IMG/VR virus record: IMGVR_UViG_3300048017_000141
Direction: 5' to 3' (one strand)
DNA length: 64,000 nucleotides
From: a virus
The translations under genes and the position numbers were made by a program. Below, piece by piece: positions 1,886 to 33,195 of this stretch (position 1 is the first letter of the stretch; each line of letters starts with the position of its first letter). The notes below the pieces were generated by a model. It saw only the letters and a list, made by a program, of their open reading frames with translations, was not told the origin of the DNA and did no database searches.

Positions 1886-3607
1886 TTATCCGTCGCATGA
1901 AACACAATCAACCATTGCTTTAGCAGCAATATCTCCACGTAGCACTGATTCAGTTCGCATATAATATAAGGTTTTGATACCTTTTTTCCATGCTTCAAAA
2001 TGAACTTGGTTAATCCATTTTGGTGTTGCTTCGCTTGGAAACGCTAAGTTTAAACTAACTGATTGATCAATATACTGTTGTCGTATTCCAGCCTGATTTA
2101 CTAATTCCAATTGGTTTATTTCCTTAAAAGTTTTGAATACGTCTTTAACAGGTATATCTTTATATGCGCCAAAAAACTTATCGTCAAGTTCTTTTATGTC
2201 CTGTACAGAACCACCATCTTCGAGTATTTTATTCCAGATTGCATCGGTATTTAACCCAAAGCCTTCTAACACTTTTTCTAATGTTGGATTTCTACGGATA
2301 AACGTACCCTTGGCAGTTTGTTCGGTAAAAACATTGGCAGCCCAAGGTTCAATACCTGAGCTAACATTACCACTAAGTTTGCTATTACTGACAGTAGGAG
2401 CCACTGCACGTAGATGAGTATTACGCATTCCAGTACCAACACACCATAAAGGTTCTCCATAAATCTCTGCAAGATCTTTGCTGGCTCTTTCACTCTCAAT
2501 TTTAATTTGTGAAAAAATCTTCCTAGTCTCAAACTGAGATAATAGACCTTCGAAAGGAAGTCCTTTTTCTTGGAGGTAAGTGTGCCATCCGAGGACTCCC
2601 AAGCCAAGAGCTCTCCCTTTTTGCGCAGACCGAACCGAATTCTCAAATCCGCGTAACCCTTTGGCTCGTTGGATAAATTCTTCCATAACTCCATCAAGAA
2701 AGAACGTGGCGTCATATATAAGGTTAGTATCTTTCCATTCTTCATATTTAGCTAAATTTAGTGATGATAAACAGCAAACAAAACTGTGTGTTTCGTCCGT
2801 ATGTAATGTTATTTCCGAGCAGATATTAGTCATGTGAACTTTTAATCCATGTGTTCTATATGCTTGCGGATTTGCTTTATTTGTATTTCCTTTGAATAAA
2901 ACATACGGCTCGCCAGTTGCTTTTCTTTTTTGCAAAAGCTTACTCCATCTTCTTCTAGCTTCCTGATCTCCAGATTCTAACTTACGCATAAACTTATCGC
3001 CAACGACTACACATTGATGTAAGTTTAACGCTTGTCTATTCATGTCTCCCTTAGGCTCTCTTATTTCAAGCCATTGATCAAAATCCTTATGTTCTATATT
3101 TATATTAACAGAAGCAGCACCTCTTCTTACTGAACCTTGATTCGTTGCTAATATAGTCGAATCATAAATTTTACAGAATGGAACAACACCATCTGAAGTA
3201 CCGTTGCCGGTTATCTTTGAGCCAGCTGCTCTGATCTGATTTACGCCAATACCAACTCCTCCACCGTGTTTAGCTAACAACATCATCTCCAAGTTTTTTT
3301 GGCCAATGTCCTGAATCGAATCGGCCACATCAATACCAAAACAACTAATTGGTAAACCCCTATCTGTTCCTGTGTTTGATAATACGGGTGACGCTAAACA
3401 TAACCATCCTTTCCATATATAATCAAAGAATTTTTCAGCCATTTCAGGCTTGTATAATCTTCTAGCAACAGTAGTAGCTACTCTATTATAAGCGTCCCTT
3501 GGGGTTTCGCCGGGCAATAAATATCCCCCGGCAATTGTCTTTTTGTAAACATCAGTGTTACCCCAATCAGGAAAATCTACACCTGGTTTCCATTCTTCCT
3601 TCCACAT
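1886..3607 (-). CDS. nrdA: Ribonucleotide reductase class I large subunit
   Basis: 573 aa with the catalytic-site context TNICSEITL and PISCFG/GGGVG-type motifs. It sits next to the nrdB homologue. Confidence 0.9.
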   Translation of the reverse strand: MWKEEWKPGVDFPDWGNTDVYKKTIAGGYLLPGETPRDAYNRVATTVARRLYKPEMAEKFFDYIWKGWLCLASPVLSNTGTDRGLPISCFGIDVADSIQDIGQKNLEMMLLAKHGGGVGIGVNQIRAAGSKITGNGTSDGVVPFCKIYDSTILATNQGSVRRGAASVNINIEHKDFDQWLEIREPKGDMNRQALNLHQCVVVGDKFMRKLESGDQEARRRWSKLLQKRKATGEPYVLFKGNTNKANPQAYRTHGLKVHMTNICSEITLHTDETHSFVCCLSSLNLAKYEEWKDTNLIYDATFFLDGVMEEFIQRAKGLRGFENSVRSAQKGRALGLGVLGWHTYLQEKGLPFEGLLSQFETRKIFSQIKIESERASKDLAEIYGEPLWCVGTGMRNTHLRAVAPTVSNSKLSGNVSSGIEPWAANVFTEQTAKGTFIRRNPTLEKVLEGFGLNTDAIWNKILEDGGSVQDIKELDDKFFGAYKDIPVKDVFKTFKEINQLELVNQAGIRQQYIDQSVSLNLAFPSEATPKWINQVHFEAWKKGIKTLYYMRTESVLRGDIAAKAMVDCVSCDG

Positions 3608-18345: not shown

Positions 18346-18786
18346 TTATTTATCTTTTAAATGCGCTTTACCAATTTCATAATATTTTTTGTAACCATCA
18401 ACAGCGTCAGCCATTTTGTATTCGTCAGGCATACATTGCGGTGGATCGCAAAAATCTTCAGCGTGTATAGCATGAGGTACTTTAGACAGAATATCACGAC
18501 ACTTAGCAATTGTTAAATGGTGCTTGCTATAACGTCTTGTATATTCAGCGCCTAAAGCTAGCATATATTCATAACACCATAAATAGTTAGCTCTTGATGA
18601 TCTTACCCATACAGCCGATGGATGGTTCATATGTGTTTTCTTGTAAGGCACATCATCAGGGTTGCCGGATAAATGATGTGCTGTGCAAAGCAATTGAGCA
18701 GCCTCTAATACCATTTTTACTACGTGTTTATTGTAGTGTTGTTGTGCGGCTTTTGTTGGATTGCGATCTAAATAAAATATGTTCAT
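18346..18786 (-). CDS. Conserved hypothetical protein (MNIFYLD...HVVKM...AQLL family)
   Basis: 146 aa. I recognise the N-terminal motif as recurrent in phages and large viruses but cannot name a function. Confidence 0.6.
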   Translation of the reverse strand: MNIFYLDRNPTKAAQQHYNKHVVKMVLEAAQLLCTAHHLSGNPDDVPYKKTHMNHPSAVWVRSSRANYLWCYEYMLALGAEYTRRYSKHHLTIAKCRDILSKVPHAIHAEDFCDPPQCMPDEYKMADAVDGYKKYYEIGKAHLKDK

Positions 18787-18801
18787 AGTTAATTTGTTTT
18801 A

Positions 18802-18846
18802 GTTACATTAATATTATCATTTGTTATTCGTGTTTAGACTGTAAGG
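18802..18846 (-). promoter_or_regulatory. Early-gene conserved element, copy 1
   Basis: Gene-sense consensus is TACAG-N7-ACG-N9-TGATAATAWWAWTGTAAC. The core ends 15 nt upstream of the ATG at 18786. Confidence 0.6.
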
Positions 18847-18921
18847 CTTGACTATCTCACACTTAGCTTATATCCAGATACTACCGGGAAATGCCCAGAA
18901 GCGATAAGCACCTTTAATTTG

Positions 18922-18995
18922 TGTCCGCAGCAGGGTTTGAACCTGCGACCTATTGATTATGAGTCAATTGCTCTGACCAGCTGAGCTATGCGGAC
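18922..18995 (-). tRNA. tRNA with anticodon CAT (Met, or Ile2 if lysidine-modified)
   Basis: Hand-folded 74-nt cloverleaf. Acceptor is GTCCGCA/TGCGGAC, D arm GCTC/GAGC and anticodon arm ATTGA-CTCATAA-TCAAT. T arm is GCAGG-TTCAAAC-CCTGC and the discriminator is A. No CCA is encoded. Confidence 0.9.
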
Positions 18996-19161
18996 TAAAA
19001 TGTGTGTTTTTAAATATCCCTAGAACACACAAACTATGCCGACCAACGATTCGGGGTAGCGTCCACGCCAATGTGAATGTACCCAAAGGTATTTTTCATT
19101 TAAACCCACATCTGTAATCTCCATCTTCGATCCATACCCAGCGCTAGGCAGAGGGCTATTG

Positions 19162-19319
19162 TAGTCAGGACAGGATTCGAACCTGTATTTCACGTCTGAA
19201 TTATTACATATTACTTCTTGAGTTCCACTCTCTGTATTGCTTTTGGGTGCTTCCCACGCCTTATACACACATTTATTTTTCATAACACATAATAGCGTTT
19301 ACAATTTCGCCACCTGACT
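19162..19319 (-). tRNA. Class-II (Leu/Ser/Tyr-type) tRNA-like gene interrupted by about 77 nt at the anticodon loop
   Basis: The 7/7 acceptor stem is AGTCAGG (19319-19313) with CCTGACT (19169-19163). The D arm TGGCGAAATTGTAAACGC is Leu-like. ATTAT (19293-19289) pairs with ATAAT (19204-19200). There is a long variable arm (TTCA-GACG-TGAA) and a canonical T arm ACAGG-TTCGAAT-CCTGT. 84 nt sit where a 7-nt loop is expected. Confidence 0.45.
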
Positions 19320-19603
19320 TTATTTAGCACCCTCTTTCTTATTTAATAAGAGTAGGGTCACGTAAGATTAAGTCTTTAATATTTTAGGTGTTATTTTCTG
19401 ACCATCATTACTTGCTGAGAACTCATTTGTGTTGATGATAGACTATTTAAACTATCAAATTTACCCCATTCCTTTCTCAAGGGAACAACACATCTACCAT
19501 TACTGATAGTATCTTTATGTAAATTGTAGTTCTGACTTTCACAAGATTTTACAGACTTTCTACTATTACAATTTACAAAGGTATTCAATGTTTAACCTAT
19601 TTG

Positions 19604-19660
19604 GAACTAGAGAGGGTTCGAACCCTCTTAACCCGTCGGCCGCTTGCCCAGCGCTAGTTC
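19604..19660 (-). other. 57-nt multi-hairpin element (tRNA-minihelix-like, not a canonical tRNA)
   Basis: The outer stem GAACTAG/CTAGTTC encloses a CGCT-GGGCA-AGCG hairpin (minus sense) and the perfect 18-nt palindrome AGAGGGTTCGAACCCTCT (19611-19628). Confidence 0.25.
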
Positions 19661-19798
19661 TTAGTTAATCCTAGGGCCGGTTATTTTCTTTATCCTAGCT
19701 TCAGTTACAACCACAGCGCTACTGTTGGTATCACTTCACGTAACTCCAGCTGATTAACATTAACACGATTGAACGCTGCTCGAGCACTACATGCGGAA

Positions 19799-31632: not shown

Positions 31633-33195
31633 ATGGCAGATGCAATTGTAAAAAACCTTAGCTTTGGAGAAGACGCTCGAAAGAAGGTATTTGAAGGCAT
31701 TACTAAATTAACAAAAGCAGTAAGTTCTACACTTGGTGCTAGTGGTAAATGCGTAATATTAGAAGACGGAGCAGGTAGACCTGTAATAACAAAAGACGGA
31801 GTAACAGTAGCTGATAGTATCATACTGTTGGATCCTATTGAAAATATGGGTGCTACTCTTTTAAAAGAAGCCGCTCGCAAAACAGTTAAAGAAGCTGGAG
31901 ACGGAACTACAACCGCTACAGTATTATCTCACTCGATCTTAACAGAAGCTTACAATAATACAGAAGGTGAGAGTAGTAGAAATATAAAAGAAATGATTGA
32001 TCAAGCAACTCAAGAGGTTGTAGAATACTTAGAAAGTATTGCAATCCCTGTTTCGGGTGATATTATTGATCATGTTGCTACAATTTCTGCCAACAATGAT
32101 AAAGAGCTTGGTAAAATAATTGCTGATGCTTTTAGAGCTGCTGGAGACAATGGCGTTGTGATGATGGAATCTTCCGCATCAAACACCACTGAAATAGAAT
32201 TGATTGATGGTATTCAATATGACAAAGGATTAGTTAATTCTAACTTTGTAACTAATCCAGCTAAAAAAGCTGCTGAGTTAGAAAATGCATATGTATTGAT
32301 TATAGAATCACCAGTTGAGAACGTAAGACAAATACAAAGCATACTTGAATTCGTAATGAAGGAAAGAAAAGCTTTGCTAATTATAGCAGACATGGAACAA
32401 CCTGTTTTAGCTGTATTAGCAATGAATAAAATAAAAGGTAATATAAAAGTGAACGTTATTAACGCGCCTACTTATGGTATCAATAAAAAAGATACTTTAA
32501 TGGATTTAGCATTATTAACAGGATCTACTATAATAAATGAAGATCTTGGTGATGATATGGATTTAATCGATCCATCAAATCTTGGTTTCTGTACAAAAGC
32601 AATAACGACAGACGCTGAGACCATCATTCAAGTAAATGATCCAAGCGAAGAAGCTTTAGCTTTAATTGATCAAGTAAAAAAAGATATTAGCGATACAAAG
32701 AACCCCGGTGAACTTATTCGTTTAGAAAGAAGGTTAGCTAGATTATCTGGAAAAGTGGCTGTTGTAAAAGTAGGTGCAAATTCAGAAGTTGAATTAAAAG
32801 AAAAAGCAGATAGAGTAGAAGACGCAATATGCGCAACTAAAGCAGCTATTAAAGAAGGTATTGTTCCTGGCGGAGGAATTGCATTATTAGATGCCTCAGA
32901 AAAATTATTCGCGGCTTCTGCGGGATATAGAATAATGAAGGAAGCAATTAAAGCTCCTTTTAAAACAATATTATCTAATGCCGGAATTATGGATACATCC
33001 ATGCCAAAAAGAAGTGTTGGAGAAGGTTTAAATATTGTTACGAATAAAAGGGTCAATATGATAGAGGAAGGTATCGTAGATCCTTTGTCTGTTACTAAGA
33101 GCGCTTTGAAGAATGCAGTATCAGTGGCTACTACTATATTATCAACCGATTGTGTAATCAATAATCTACGTGTAGGGAATGAAAGCAATAGGTAA
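31633..33195 (+). CDS. groEL: Chaperonin GroEL (Cpn60) homologue
   Basis: FGEDAR, ITKDGVTVA and AGDGTTTATVL are collinear with E. coli GroEL. The 520-aa protein has no C-terminal GGM tail. Confidence 0.95.
   Translation: MADAIVKNLSFGEDARKKVFEGITKLTKAVSSTLGASGKCVILEDGAGRPVITKDGVTVADSIILLDPIENMGATLLKEAARKTVKEAGDGTTTATVLSHSILTEAYNNTEGESSRNIKEMIDQATQEVVEYLESIAIPVSGDIIDHVATISANNDKELGKIIADAFRAAGDNGVVMMESSASNTTEIELIDGIQYDKGLVNSNFVTNPAKKAAELENAYVLIIESPVENVRQIQSILEFVMKERKALLIIADMEQPVLAVLAMNKIKGNIKVNVINAPTYGINKKDTLMDLALLTGSTIINEDLGDDMDLIDPSNLGFCTKAITTDAETIIQVNDPSEEALALIDQVKKDISDTKNPGELIRLERRLARLSGKVAVVKVGANSEVELKEKADRVEDAICATKAAIKEGIVPGGGIALLDASEKLFAASAGYRIMKEAIKAPFKTILSNAGIMDTSMPKRSVGEGLNIVTNKRVNMIEEGIVDPLSVTKSALKNAVSVATTILSTDCVINNLRVGNESNR

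What the first reader, a model, noticed from the sequence alone, without database searches (positions are those of the whole stretch)
19162..19319. Class-II tRNA gene apparently split by a ~77-nt insertion at the anticodon loop
**Seen on the minus strand.**
- A perfect 7-bp acceptor stem joins 19319-19313 to 19169-19163.
- The D arm is Leu-type (TGGCGAAATTGTAAACGC).
- ATTAT pairs with ATAAT as the anticodon stem.
- There is a long variable arm and a textbook T arm (ACAGG-TTCGAAT-CCTGT).
- The two anticodon-stem strands are separated by 84 nt instead of 7.

**Reading of the exons.**
- The 5' exon continues G-T-GTT-A, giving U33, a GUU triplet and A37.
- The 3' exon is preceded by A.
- A position-37/38 intron would therefore give the loop GUGUUAA.
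- A GUU (Asn) anticodon does not fit a class-II body, so the identity is unresolved.

**Established knowledge.** Bacterial and phage tRNA introns are group I introns, normally longer than 200 nt. Short introns cut by a protein endonuclease are an archaeal and eukaryal feature.

**Inference.** The possibilities are an unusually small self-splicing or otherwise processed intervening sequence, a tRNA-like RNA with an expanded anticodon arm, or a disrupted pseudogene.

**Context.** The insert contains two small hairpins (UGGG-AAGCA-CCCA and GAGU-GGA-ACUC). It also contains the ATG of a dubious 87-aa ORF that reads through the 3' tRNA half.
Basis: partly seen in the sequence, partly recalled or inferred. 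Interest (0 to 1): 0.65.

Follow-up and report, generated by a model that had tools for sequence, protein, structure and literature searches.

The report
Phage tRNA-like RNA, not split tRNA
What looks like a tRNA gene cut in two by a short intron is one member of a large, apparently undescribed family of phage RNAs that keep the upper half of a leucine tRNA and replace the anticodon end with an insert that differs in almost every copy.

Summary
On the minus strand, 19162-19319 folds into a 7-bp acceptor stem, a Leu-type D arm, a canonical T arm and A73, with about 105 nt in place of the anticodon and variable arms. The intron reading does not hold.

- **Family.** The same acceptor, D arm and T arm occur in at least 124 viral loci, up to 6 copies each. 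Lengths run continuously from 54 to 191 nt, and the middle part is unrelated between copies: 173 elements fall into 150 insert clusters.
- **No anticodon.** Canonical anticodon stem-loops occur in the inserts no more often than in shuffled sequence.
- **Not acceptor-dependent.** A scan that left the acceptor free found many other acceptor sequences, 91.5% paired, with all 7 pairs covarying.
- **Made like tRNAs.** The elements sit in phage tRNA clusters and share the C-A/T-A trailer of genuine tRNAs.
- **Leucine core.** The conserved part matches the minimal E. coli LeuRS substrate.
- **Structured inserts.** Sub-families show compensatory changes, and one shows a probable pseudoknot.
- **Testable.** One cultured phage, Bacteroides phage BS-TP2, carries an unannotated member.

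Best reading: a non-decoding tRNA-like RNA, with a tRNA-Leu core as handle and a variable insert as effector. The function is inferred, not shown. The adjacent 165-nt spacer is a second conserved structured RNA.

The parts
19162..19319 (-). Whole tRNA-like element, 158 nt: a tRNA-Leu-type core with a lineage-specific insert
   Evidence: Sequence. Cloverleaf minimum-free-energy fold, z -2.64. ARAGORN finds it only with introns allowed. It shares its 5' and 3' parts with at least 124 viral loci.
19313..19319 (-). Acceptor stem, 5' strand AGUCAGG
   Evidence: Pairs 7/7 with 19163-19169. It is the commonest acceptor in the family.
19295..19310 (-). D arm, Leu type: GCG / AAAUUGUAAA / CGC, preceded by U8 and G9
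   Evidence: The family consensus is UGGCGGAAU(U)GGUAGACGC. This copy has a single G where the family has G18G19.
19188..19294 (-). Variable insert, standing where the anticodon and variable arms would be. It comprises a 13-bp A-U/G-U helix (19282-19294 with 19202-19214), an inner domain with hairpins UGGG/CCCA and GAGU/ACUC, and a 4-bp hairpin at 19189-19200.
   Evidence: Fold. No similar insert in any other family member: it is a singleton among 150 clusters. No significant complementarity to the rest of the window.
19187..19187 (-). U48, partner of A15 in the Levitt pair
   Evidence: U at this position in 84% of AGUCAGG-type elements and in 69 of 70 elements from the acceptor-free scan.
19170..19186 (-). 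T arm ACAGG-UUCGAAU-CCUGU
   Evidence: Pair 49-65 covaries in the family: A-U 115, G-U 25, G-C 3. T-stem covariation also.
19162..19169 (-). Acceptor stem 3' strand CCUGACU plus discriminator A73 (19162)
   Evidence: In the acceptor-free scan, A73 is present in 55 of 70 elements.
19159..19161 (-). 3' trailer CAA (C74, then not C, then A; CCA is not encoded)
   Evidence: Same trailer pattern as genuine tRNAs in the same loci: CAA 45% against 48%, CTA 21% against 16%. The neighbouring tRNA-Met also ends ...A-CAA.
18996..19158 (-). Adjacent conserved structured RNA of about 165 nt, lying between the element and tRNA-Met. It is a separate feature, noticed in passing.
   Evidence: 77% identical copy in L168. 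Found in 16 viral contigs, always starting 3-5 nt after a tRNA or tRNA-like 3' end. 9 of 25 predicted pairs carry compensatory changes. No Rfam match.
18921..18995 (-). Genuine tRNA-Met(CAU), same strand, 166 nt downstream
   Evidence: ARAGORN. Rfam tRNA model, 75.5 bits.

Best explanation
The locus encodes a non-decoding tRNA-like RNA, not an interrupted tRNA.

The RNA has two parts.

- **Constant core.** It consists of a 7-bp acceptor stem, U8, a Leu-type D arm, U48, the T arm and A73. This would form the acceptor/T-arm helix and the D/T-loop elbow of a class-II tRNA.
- **Variable insert.** It replaces the anticodon and variable arms. It is structured, specific to each lineage, and here about 105 nt long.

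**Proposed mechanism.**
1. The RNA is transcribed with the neighbouring tRNA genes.
2. The core makes host tRNA enzymes treat it as a tRNA: RNase P cuts the 5' end, the C-N-A trailer is trimmed and CCA is added. The compact L-shaped core also protects the RNA from nucleases.
3. The core may in addition be charged by leucyl-tRNA synthetase, since what is conserved is exactly what that enzyme needs.
4. The insert is the working part and evolves fast. It could be an aptamer, a decoy or a regulator aimed at a host or phage target.

**Shown:** the architecture, the family, the covariation, the tRNA-cluster context and the absence of an anticodon arm.

**Inferred:** processing, charging and any effector role.
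For: **The family exists and the core is constrained.**
- The same core with unrelated inserts occurs in relatives chosen only through a neighbouring protein.
- It also occurs in at least 124 viral loci, as 145 distinct elements of 54-191 nt, 86 of them longer than 95 nt.
Acceptors were diverse: 91.5% of cells paired, all 7 pairs with double changes, against 36-48% paired in slid controls.

**It does not decode.**
- Canonical anticodon stem-loops are at chance level.
- ARAGORN calls only 25 of 146 elements as tRNAs, with scattered anticodons.

**It is handled like a tRNA.**
- The elements lie inside tRNA clusters, in the same orientation as the tRNAs.
- They have the same 3' trailer as genuine tRNAs.
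- Many reach the Rfam tRNA threshold, at 30-45 bits, despite the insert.

**The insert is selected and folded.**
- There are compensatory changes within sub-families.
- Inserts are more stable than shuffled sequence: mean z -0.5, p = 2e-10.
- GNRA-capped hairpins are enriched: 49, against 27 +/- 4.6 in shuffles.

**Each genome holds a repertoire, not duplicates.**
- Of 50 within-locus pairs, none shares a 10-mer in the insert.
- 173 elements give 150 insert clusters.

**The core matches leucine identity.**
- A73, A15-U48, G18G19, A20a and the D/T-loop tertiary pairs are the E. coli LeuRS determinants. tRNA-Leu lacking the anticodon and variable arms stays active (PMC9976931, read).
Against: - No expression, processing or charging data exist for any member.
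- This copy lacks one of the two D-loop guanines that E. coli LeuRS needs, and it scores only 17.6 bits on the tRNA model. It may be a weak or decaying member.
- Its insert has no relatives, so the insert's fold rests on energy prediction alone.
- The excess structure of inserts is modest overall, and many show no clear common architecture.
- No target, partner protein or conserved neighbouring gene was found.
- One acceptor sequence dominates. This is not explained by a pure scaffold role.
Confidence: 0.6

Rival explanations
1. The function lies in the charged core. LeuRS ignores the anticodon and variable arms, so it leucylates the RNA. The RNA then acts as a sponge for LeuRS or EF-Tu, or as a leucine donor for a non-ribosomal transferase. 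The insert is largely neutral filler that only has to fold out of the way.
For: - The conserved positions coincide with the minimal LeuRS substrate: U48 in 69 of 70 and A73 in 55 of 70, and a Leu-type D loop.
- Insert length and sequence are almost unconstrained across the family.
- The dominance of one acceptor sequence suggests a partner that reads the acceptor stem.
Against: - Inserts within sub-families keep their helices through compensatory changes, including a pseudoknot-like helix.
- GNRA hairpins are enriched in inserts.
- One genome can hold up to 6 different inserts on the same core. That is hard to explain if the insert is irrelevant.
- The window's copy lacks G18 or G19.
- The identity rules come from E. 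coli, not from Bacteroidota.
Confidence: 0.2
2. It is a punctuation or stability signal. The tRNA-like core serves only as an RNase P and 3'-processing site that cuts or protects polycistronic phage transcripts, and the middle is unconstrained.
For: - The tRNA-like ends and the tRNA-type trailer.
- Positions between genes, for example a solitary copy between two ORFs in Bacteroides phage BS-TP2.
- The hypervariable middle.
Against: - RNase P needs little more than the acceptor/T-arm helix, yet the D arm and U48 are nearly invariant.
- Inserts covary.
- Several copies often sit side by side within tRNA clusters, where real tRNAs already supply processing sites.
Confidence: 0.1
3. One reading: a class-II tRNA gene interrupted by a small intron of about 67-77 nt, which is removed to give a decoding tRNA with anticodon GUU.
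For: - With introns allowed, ARAGORN reports tRNA-Asn(gtt) with a 67-nt intron after position 37.
- An AUUAU stem and the loop GUGUUAA can be drawn.
Against: - No anticodon-stem 'exons' are conserved in any relative.
- Isotypes and intron positions differ from relative to relative.
- Anticodon stem-loops are at chance level.
- No intron or ribozyme model matches at E <= 10.
- There is no bulge-helix-bulge motif.
- A GUU anticodon on a Leu-type body makes no sense.
- Some members carry hairpin insertions inside the D loop as well.
Confidence: 0.03
4. This particular copy is a decaying, non-functional relic of a family member or of a tRNA-Leu gene.
For: - Single G in the D loop.
- Low tRNA-model score.
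- An A-U/G-U-rich 13-bp helix, and an insert with no relatives.
- The closest relatives (93-95% identity in the neighbouring protein) lack the whole block.
Against: - The acceptor stem, T arm, U8, U48, A73 and the CAA trailer are all intact.
- The fold is more stable than shuffled sequence.
- It sits between two other conserved RNA genes.
Confidence: 0.07

Closest known systems
Bacteriophage T4 species 1 RNA (rnaC), a small stable RNA in the T4 tRNA cluster
   Same: - It is phage-encoded and lies in the tRNA cluster on the same strand as the tRNAs.
- It is about 139 nt, with a canonical T arm (CCGGG-UUCGAAU-CCCGG) and 5' and 3' ends that pair like an acceptor stem, around a large structured middle.
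- Its function is still unknown. That it is matured by the tRNA pathway is from my own knowledge.
   Different: - No sequence similarity and no Leu-type D arm.
- The acceptor stem is imperfect (5 of 7 pairs, by eye).
- It has not been described as one member of a family with interchangeable inserts.
Bacterial class-II tRNA-Leu
   Same: The acceptor/T-arm helix, the 3-bp D stem with loop GAAUUGGUAGA, A15-U48, A73 and the T loop UUCGAAU are all present. This is the full set of E. coli leucine identity elements.
   Different: - No 5-bp/7-nt anticodon stem-loop.
- Lengths reach 191 nt.
- It cannot read a codon.
tRNA-like domain of tmRNA
   Same: A tRNA acceptor/T-arm module is kept for recognition by tRNA enzymes, and the anticodon arm is replaced by a large non-tRNA domain. 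The synthetase involved ignores the anticodon.
   Different: - No G3-U70 alanine identity, and a real D stem is present.
- There is no tag reading frame, and the RNA is far smaller.
- ARAGORN's tmRNA search is negative, and Rfam gives no tmRNA match.
Engineered 'tRNA scaffold' for producing recombinant RNA in E. coli (from my own knowledge)
   Same: The design is the same: the acceptor, D and T arms are kept, and an arbitrary structured RNA is placed where the anticodon arm was. The cell then processes and stabilises it as a tRNA.
   Different: The scaffold is man-made. No natural counterpart in phages turned up in the literature I could search.
Murine gammaherpesvirus 68 tRNA-miRNA-encoded RNAs (from my own knowledge; a paper on them was listed)
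   Same: A virus uses a non-decoding tRNA-like module to drive expression and processing of attached small RNAs.
   Different: - That is a eukaryotic virus.
- The cargo hairpins follow the tRNA-like part and are cut off by tRNase Z. Here the cargo is embedded inside the cloverleaf.

Membership tests
Canonical decoding tRNA | 7-bp acceptor stem, T arm with a UUCRANY loop, and a discriminator base | tested here: met
   AGUCAGG/CCUGACU, ACAGG-UUCGAAU-CCUGU and A73.
Canonical decoding tRNA | 5-bp anticodon stem with a 7-nt loop (U33, R37), at a fixed distance from the elbow | tested here: not met
   The uninterrupted RNA has none. Across the family the count is 12 of 250, against 9.8 +/- 3.1 in shuffles.
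Canonical decoding tRNA | Length of about 70-95 nt and detection by standard tools | tested here: not met
   The element is 158 nt. ARAGORN misses it by default, and Rfam's tRNA model gives 17.6 bits against a threshold of 29.
tRNA gene with a group I or group II intron | The intron has a recognisable catalytic core, normally of more than 200 nt | tested here: not met
   No intron family matches at E <= 10 in 18800-19700. The insert is about 67-105 nt, depending on the register.
tRNA gene with a group I or group II intron | Exon parts, including both anticodon-stem strands, are conserved among homologues with and without the intron | tested here: not met
   Only the acceptor, D and T parts are shared. 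Everything between them differs. ARAGORN's intron calls are inconsistent between relatives.
Archaeal or eukaryal protein-spliced tRNA intron | Bulge-helix-bulge motif at the exon-intron junctions | tested here: not met
   The fold gives a continuous 13-bp helix with no paired 3-nt bulges. The genome is a crAss-like bacteriophage, and related contigs were binned with Bacteroidota.
tmRNA | tRNA-Ala-like domain together with a tag-peptide reading frame | tested here: not met
   ARAGORN's tmRNA mode finds nothing. Rfam gives no tmRNA match.
Phage tRNA-Leu-core RNAs with a variable insert (the family defined here) | Acceptor stem paired across the insert, Leu-type D arm, U48, T arm UUCGAAU and A73 | tested here: met
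   All are present. The 5' 12 nt and the 3' 25 nt are identical to the commonest family type. One deviation: a single G in the D loop.
Phage tRNA-Leu-core RNAs with a variable insert (the family defined here) | Location in a phage tRNA gene cluster, co-oriented, with a C-A/T-A trailer | tested here: met
   tRNA-Met lies 166 nt downstream on the same strand. The trailer is CAA.
Phage tRNA-Leu-core RNAs with a variable insert (the family defined here) | Expressed and matured as a stable RNA; possibly aminoacylated | not testable with these tools
   No transcript data were available.
T4 rnaC-type stable RNA | Sequence or covariance-model homology to T4 rnaC | tested here: inconclusive
   Only the T loop is alike by eye, and rnaC has no Leu-type D arm. 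No formal model comparison was run. I treat it as an analogue, not a member.

The most novel reading that the evidence does not exclude
Phages of Bacteroidota, and probably others, run a modular RNA platform. A leucine-tRNA core is matured by the host tRNA machinery and perhaps charged by LeuRS. It displays hundreds of unrelated, fast-evolving folded RNA domains, several per genome, which act as effectors against host or rival targets, for example as aptamer-like decoys or inhibitors of defence systems. That would be a natural counterpart of the engineered tRNA scaffold and a new class of phage non-coding RNA.
Probability: 0.3. Interest if true: 0.9.

Novelty: new variant of a known kind. Interest (0 to 1): 0.72.

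Why it matters
- **Annotation.** Standard tRNA finders miss these genes, or call them intron-containing or odd-anticodon tRNAs. Phage tRNA inventories and codon-usage or recoding inferences built on them will contain errors.
- **Biology.** The family is common. Yet I found no description of it. A conserved tRNA-Leu core carrying unrelated inserts suggests a general way for phages to make, stabilise and perhaps charge diverse small RNAs.
- **An old question.** It may also bear on what the tRNA-like stable RNAs of T4 do, which has been open for about 50 years.
- **Testability.** A cultured phage and host pair, Bacteroides phage BS-TP2 and B. salyersiae BG8, carries a member, so the ideas can be tested directly.

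Tried and rejected
- **Rfam.** Searches at gathering thresholds (whole window) and at E <= 10 (18800-19700) gave no intron, ribozyme, tmRNA or other family for the element or for the adjacent spacer.
- **tmRNA.** ARAGORN's tmRNA mode found nothing.
- **Cultured phages.**
  - The region has no close relative among them; only the tRNA-Met matched.
  - A typical AGUCAGG-type element found no full-length match in them.
- **Exact 5'-half pattern.** A search of viral contigs with this copy's 5' half found nothing.
- **Shared insert motif.** No universal k-mer was found.
- **Partner protein.** No protein cluster occurs in more than 14 of 120 loci, and the top clusters look like ordinary phage genes by eye; they were not scanned against any family library.
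- **Antisense target.** Matches of the insert within the window were at chance level only.
- **Variation in this copy.** Contigs encoding the identical neighbouring protein gave two 100% identical copies, so no variation to analyse.
- **My alignment error.** I aligned two unrelated sub-families together, which was uninformative.
- **Metagenome scan.** The gut sub-family pattern was partly wasted: 69 extraction failures, almost all unrelated protein-coding sequence; only about 50 hits were elements.
- **Promoters and terminators.** The sigma-70 and terminator scan was uninformative, and it is not suited to Bacteroidota or crAss-like promoters.
- **Spacer as a ribozyme.** I considered whether the adjacent 165-nt RNA is an HDV-like 'theta' ribozyme. 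I found no P1 complement by eye, and the paper gave no sequence to compare. This is unresolved.
- **Literature.** Six searches found no description of the family. The library lacks most subscription journals.

Full report
**1. What is in the window**

On the minus strand, 19319-19162 reads AGUCAGG-UG-GCG-AAAUUGUAAA-CGC, then about 105 nt, then U-ACAGG-UUCGAAU-CCUGU-CCUGACU-A, followed by CAA.

- The minimum-free-energy fold is a cloverleaf (coordinates). It has:
  - a 7-bp acceptor stem, a 3-bp D stem and a 5-bp T stem;
  - a 13-bp A-U/G-U helix at the anticodon position, 19294-19282 with 19214-19202;
  - a 4-bp hairpin at the variable-arm position.
- The fold is more stable than shuffled sequence, z = -2.64.
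- ARAGORN misses the element by default. With introns allowed it reports tRNA-Asn(gtt) with a 67-nt intron.
- Rfam finds only the neighbouring tRNA-Met at gathering score. At E <= 10 its tRNA model gives 17.6 bits for the 3' part, and no intron, ribozyme or tmRNA family matches.
- The window is a crAss-like phage: a Crassvirus muzzle-protein domain, ribonucleotide reductase, a primase-helicase, and about 33% G+C.
- The element lies in a stretch of about 1 kb with no convincing ORF, among small minus-strand genes.
- Two independent assemblies carry a 100% identical copy of the region.

**2. Relatives overturn the intron reading**

I fetched 35 loci through the neighbouring DNA-binding protein gene.

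- The closest relatives (93-95% protein identity) have no element at all.
- Several more distant ones have, at the same place, elements with the same acceptor stem, D arm and T arm but completely different middles: 73, 99, 103, 124 and 132 nt. One further element has a compensating different acceptor, GAUCGAG/CUCGAUC.
- On these loci ARAGORN's intron mode gives a different isotype and intron position each time.

- At least 124 loci carry it. Thirty have 2-6 copies.
- There are 145 distinct elements, with lengths spread continuously from 54 to 191 nt (median 103), and 86 are longer than 95 nt.
- Genuine tRNAs in the same loci keep normal lengths and have varied acceptors.
- The inserts are extraordinarily diverse: 173 elements fall into 150 clusters, 134 of them singletons, including the window's.
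- Copies within one genome never share even a 10-mer in the insert, across 50 pairs. They are not duplicates of a mobile element.

**3. The result does not depend on the acceptor-anchored search**

A second scan fixed only the Leu-type D arm and the T loop, with 60-90 nt between them. That spacing is too long for any tRNA.

- AGUCAGG makes up about a third of the acceptors. The rest are many different sequences.
- On the 69 distinct cores, 95.2% of all cells are paired (91.5% in the acceptor stem), against 36-48% when the partners are slid.
- All 7 acceptor pairs and 3 T-stem pairs show changes on both sides. No shuffle reached the observed covariation score.
- U48 is present in 69 of 70, A73 in 55 of 70, and the trailer is again CAA or CTA.

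These are real RNAs whose ends pair across more than 100 nt.

**4. They are made like tRNAs but cannot decode**

- The elements sit inside phage tRNA clusters, in the same orientation as the tRNAs.
- The three bases after the discriminator follow the same C-A/T-A pattern as in genuine tRNAs of the same loci: CAA 45% against 48%, CTA 21% against 16%.
- Many elements pass the Rfam tRNA threshold, at 30-45 bits, despite the insert.
- Yet only 12 of 250 inserts contain a 5-bp/7-nt stem-loop with U33 and R37 anywhere. Shuffled inserts give 9.8 +/- 3.1.
- ARAGORN of 146 as tRNAs, with scattered anticodons at odd positions.
- Some members also have a hairpin inserted in the D loop.

**5. The insert is a folded, selected domain**

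- **Freshwater sub-family of four.** It keeps an 8-bp stem at the anticodon position, an inner hairpin, and the D and T stems, all through compensatory changes.
- **Gut sub-family.** It has a stem GAGUA/UACUC. It also has a helix between a hairpin loop and the 3' tail that changes from GAGCUUU/AAAGCUC, via GAGCUUU/AAAGUUC, to GAACUUU/AAAGUUC. In a more distant member this helix is UUGUAAU/AUUACAG. This looks like a pseudoknot.
- **Family-wide.** Inserts are somewhat more stable than shuffled sequence: mean z -0.5, p = 2e-10. GNRA-capped hairpins are enriched: 49 against 27 +/- 4.6.
- **No common thread.** I found no universal motif, no common architecture, no conserved neighbouring protein, and no antisense target within the window.

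**6. What the conserved part means**

The conserved positions are A73, A15-U48, G18G19, A20a and the T-loop bases that pair with the D loop. [quoted passage not shown]

So the family keeps exactly what LeuRS, RNase P and the CCA enzyme need, and varies exactly what they ignore. This supports two readings:

- the core is a maturation and stability handle for a variable effector domain (my preferred reading, about 0.45);
- the charged core itself is the point (about 0.2).

Both are inference. The window's own copy has one G instead of GG in the D loop, which is rare in the family. It may therefore be a weaker or decaying member.

**7. Distribution**

- The AGUCAGG type is absent from cultured phages.
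- Among 185,579 species genomes it occurs only on 20 metagenome-assembled contigs, all from metagenome-assembled genomes. About 12 of these were assigned to Bacteroidota.
- A composite query of other types found one cultured carrier, Bacteroides phage BS-TP2. There a solitary 108-nt element lies between gp31 and gp32. It is unannotated and invisible to ARAGORN.

**8. Comparison with what is known**

- The nearest analogue is T4 species 1 RNA (rnaC). It is a 139-nt stable RNA in the T4 tRNA cluster with a T arm and acceptor-like ends, and its function is unknown. It shows no homology and no Leu-type D arm.
- tmRNA, herpesvirus tRNA-miRNA RNAs and the engineered tRNA scaffold share the principle but not the family.
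- Six literature searches found no description. The library is incomplete.

**9. Verdict**

- The intron interpretation is rejected.
- I rate it a new variant of a known kind (phage tRNA-like stable RNAs), with interest 0.72.

**10. Also found**

The 165-nt spacer between the element and tRNA-Met is a second conserved structured RNA, found in 16 viral contigs. It always starts 3-5 nt after a tRNA or tRNA-like 3' end, and 9 of its 25 predicted pairs are compensatory. This also disposes of the 87-aa ORF.

Noticed in passing
window 18996-19158 (-): The 'spacer' between the tRNA-like element and tRNA-Met is itself a conserved structured RNA of about 145-165 nt. It has an invariant 35-nt 5' block, AGCCCUCUGCCUAGCGCUGGGUAUGGAUCGAAGAU. 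It occurs in 16 viral contigs and one binned contig, always starting 3-5 nt after a tRNA or tRNA-like 3' end and ending just before the next one. 9 of 25 predicted pairs are compensatory. There is no Rfam match, and whether it is a ribozyme or a processing element is unresolved.
   Followed up: partly
It has no PHROG match. In related copies the frame ATG GAT CGA AGA TAG is stopped at once, so it is not a gene.
   Followed up: yes
window 18787-18845 (-), just upstream of gene 18346-18786: A sequence of about 50-60 nt here recurs several times per locus in the related crAss-like contigs at 82-100% identity. It is probably a repeated promoter or regulatory element of this phage group.
   Followed up: no
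L001, L002, L005 against window 18921-19319: The closest relatives (93-95% identity in the neighbouring protein) lack the whole block of element, 165-nt RNA and tRNA-Met. Others carry one or two different elements, or a tRNA, at the same site. This intergenic site turns over quickly.
   Followed up: partly
L307 2501-2608 (Bacteroides phage BS-TP2, PQ571275.1 19550-19657): An unannotated 108-nt family member in a cultured phage, between gp31 (DUF2303) and gp32 (NinG/Rap). It is preceded by a G+C-rich hairpin, and ARAGORN finds no tRNA in the 5.1-kb stretch examined. The same sub-family is common in human gut metagenome contigs.
   Followed up: partly
L006 3809-3940, L008 3598-3758, L094, L096, L110, L151, L060: Some family members carry an extra hairpin of about 19-55 nt inserted inside the D loop, between GGCGGAA and GGUAGACGC, in addition to the main insert.
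   Followed up: no
L051 4124-4186: A near-threshold match to the Rfam 'freshwater-1' RNA (70.1 bits, gathering score 72) lies inside a phage tRNA cluster that also holds four of the tRNA-like elements.
   Followed up: no
window 19329-19358 (-): A strong hairpin, CCCUACUCUUAU...AUAAGAAAGAGGG, sits 10 nt upstream of the element. It has no U-run, so it is not a classical terminator. It may be a processing or leader structure.
   Followed up: no
window 31633-33195 (+): This crAss-like phage encodes a full-length Cpn60/GroEL-type chaperonin (PF00118, E = 1.7e-61), as well as a class I-type ribonucleotide reductase large subunit at 1886-3607.
   Followed up: no
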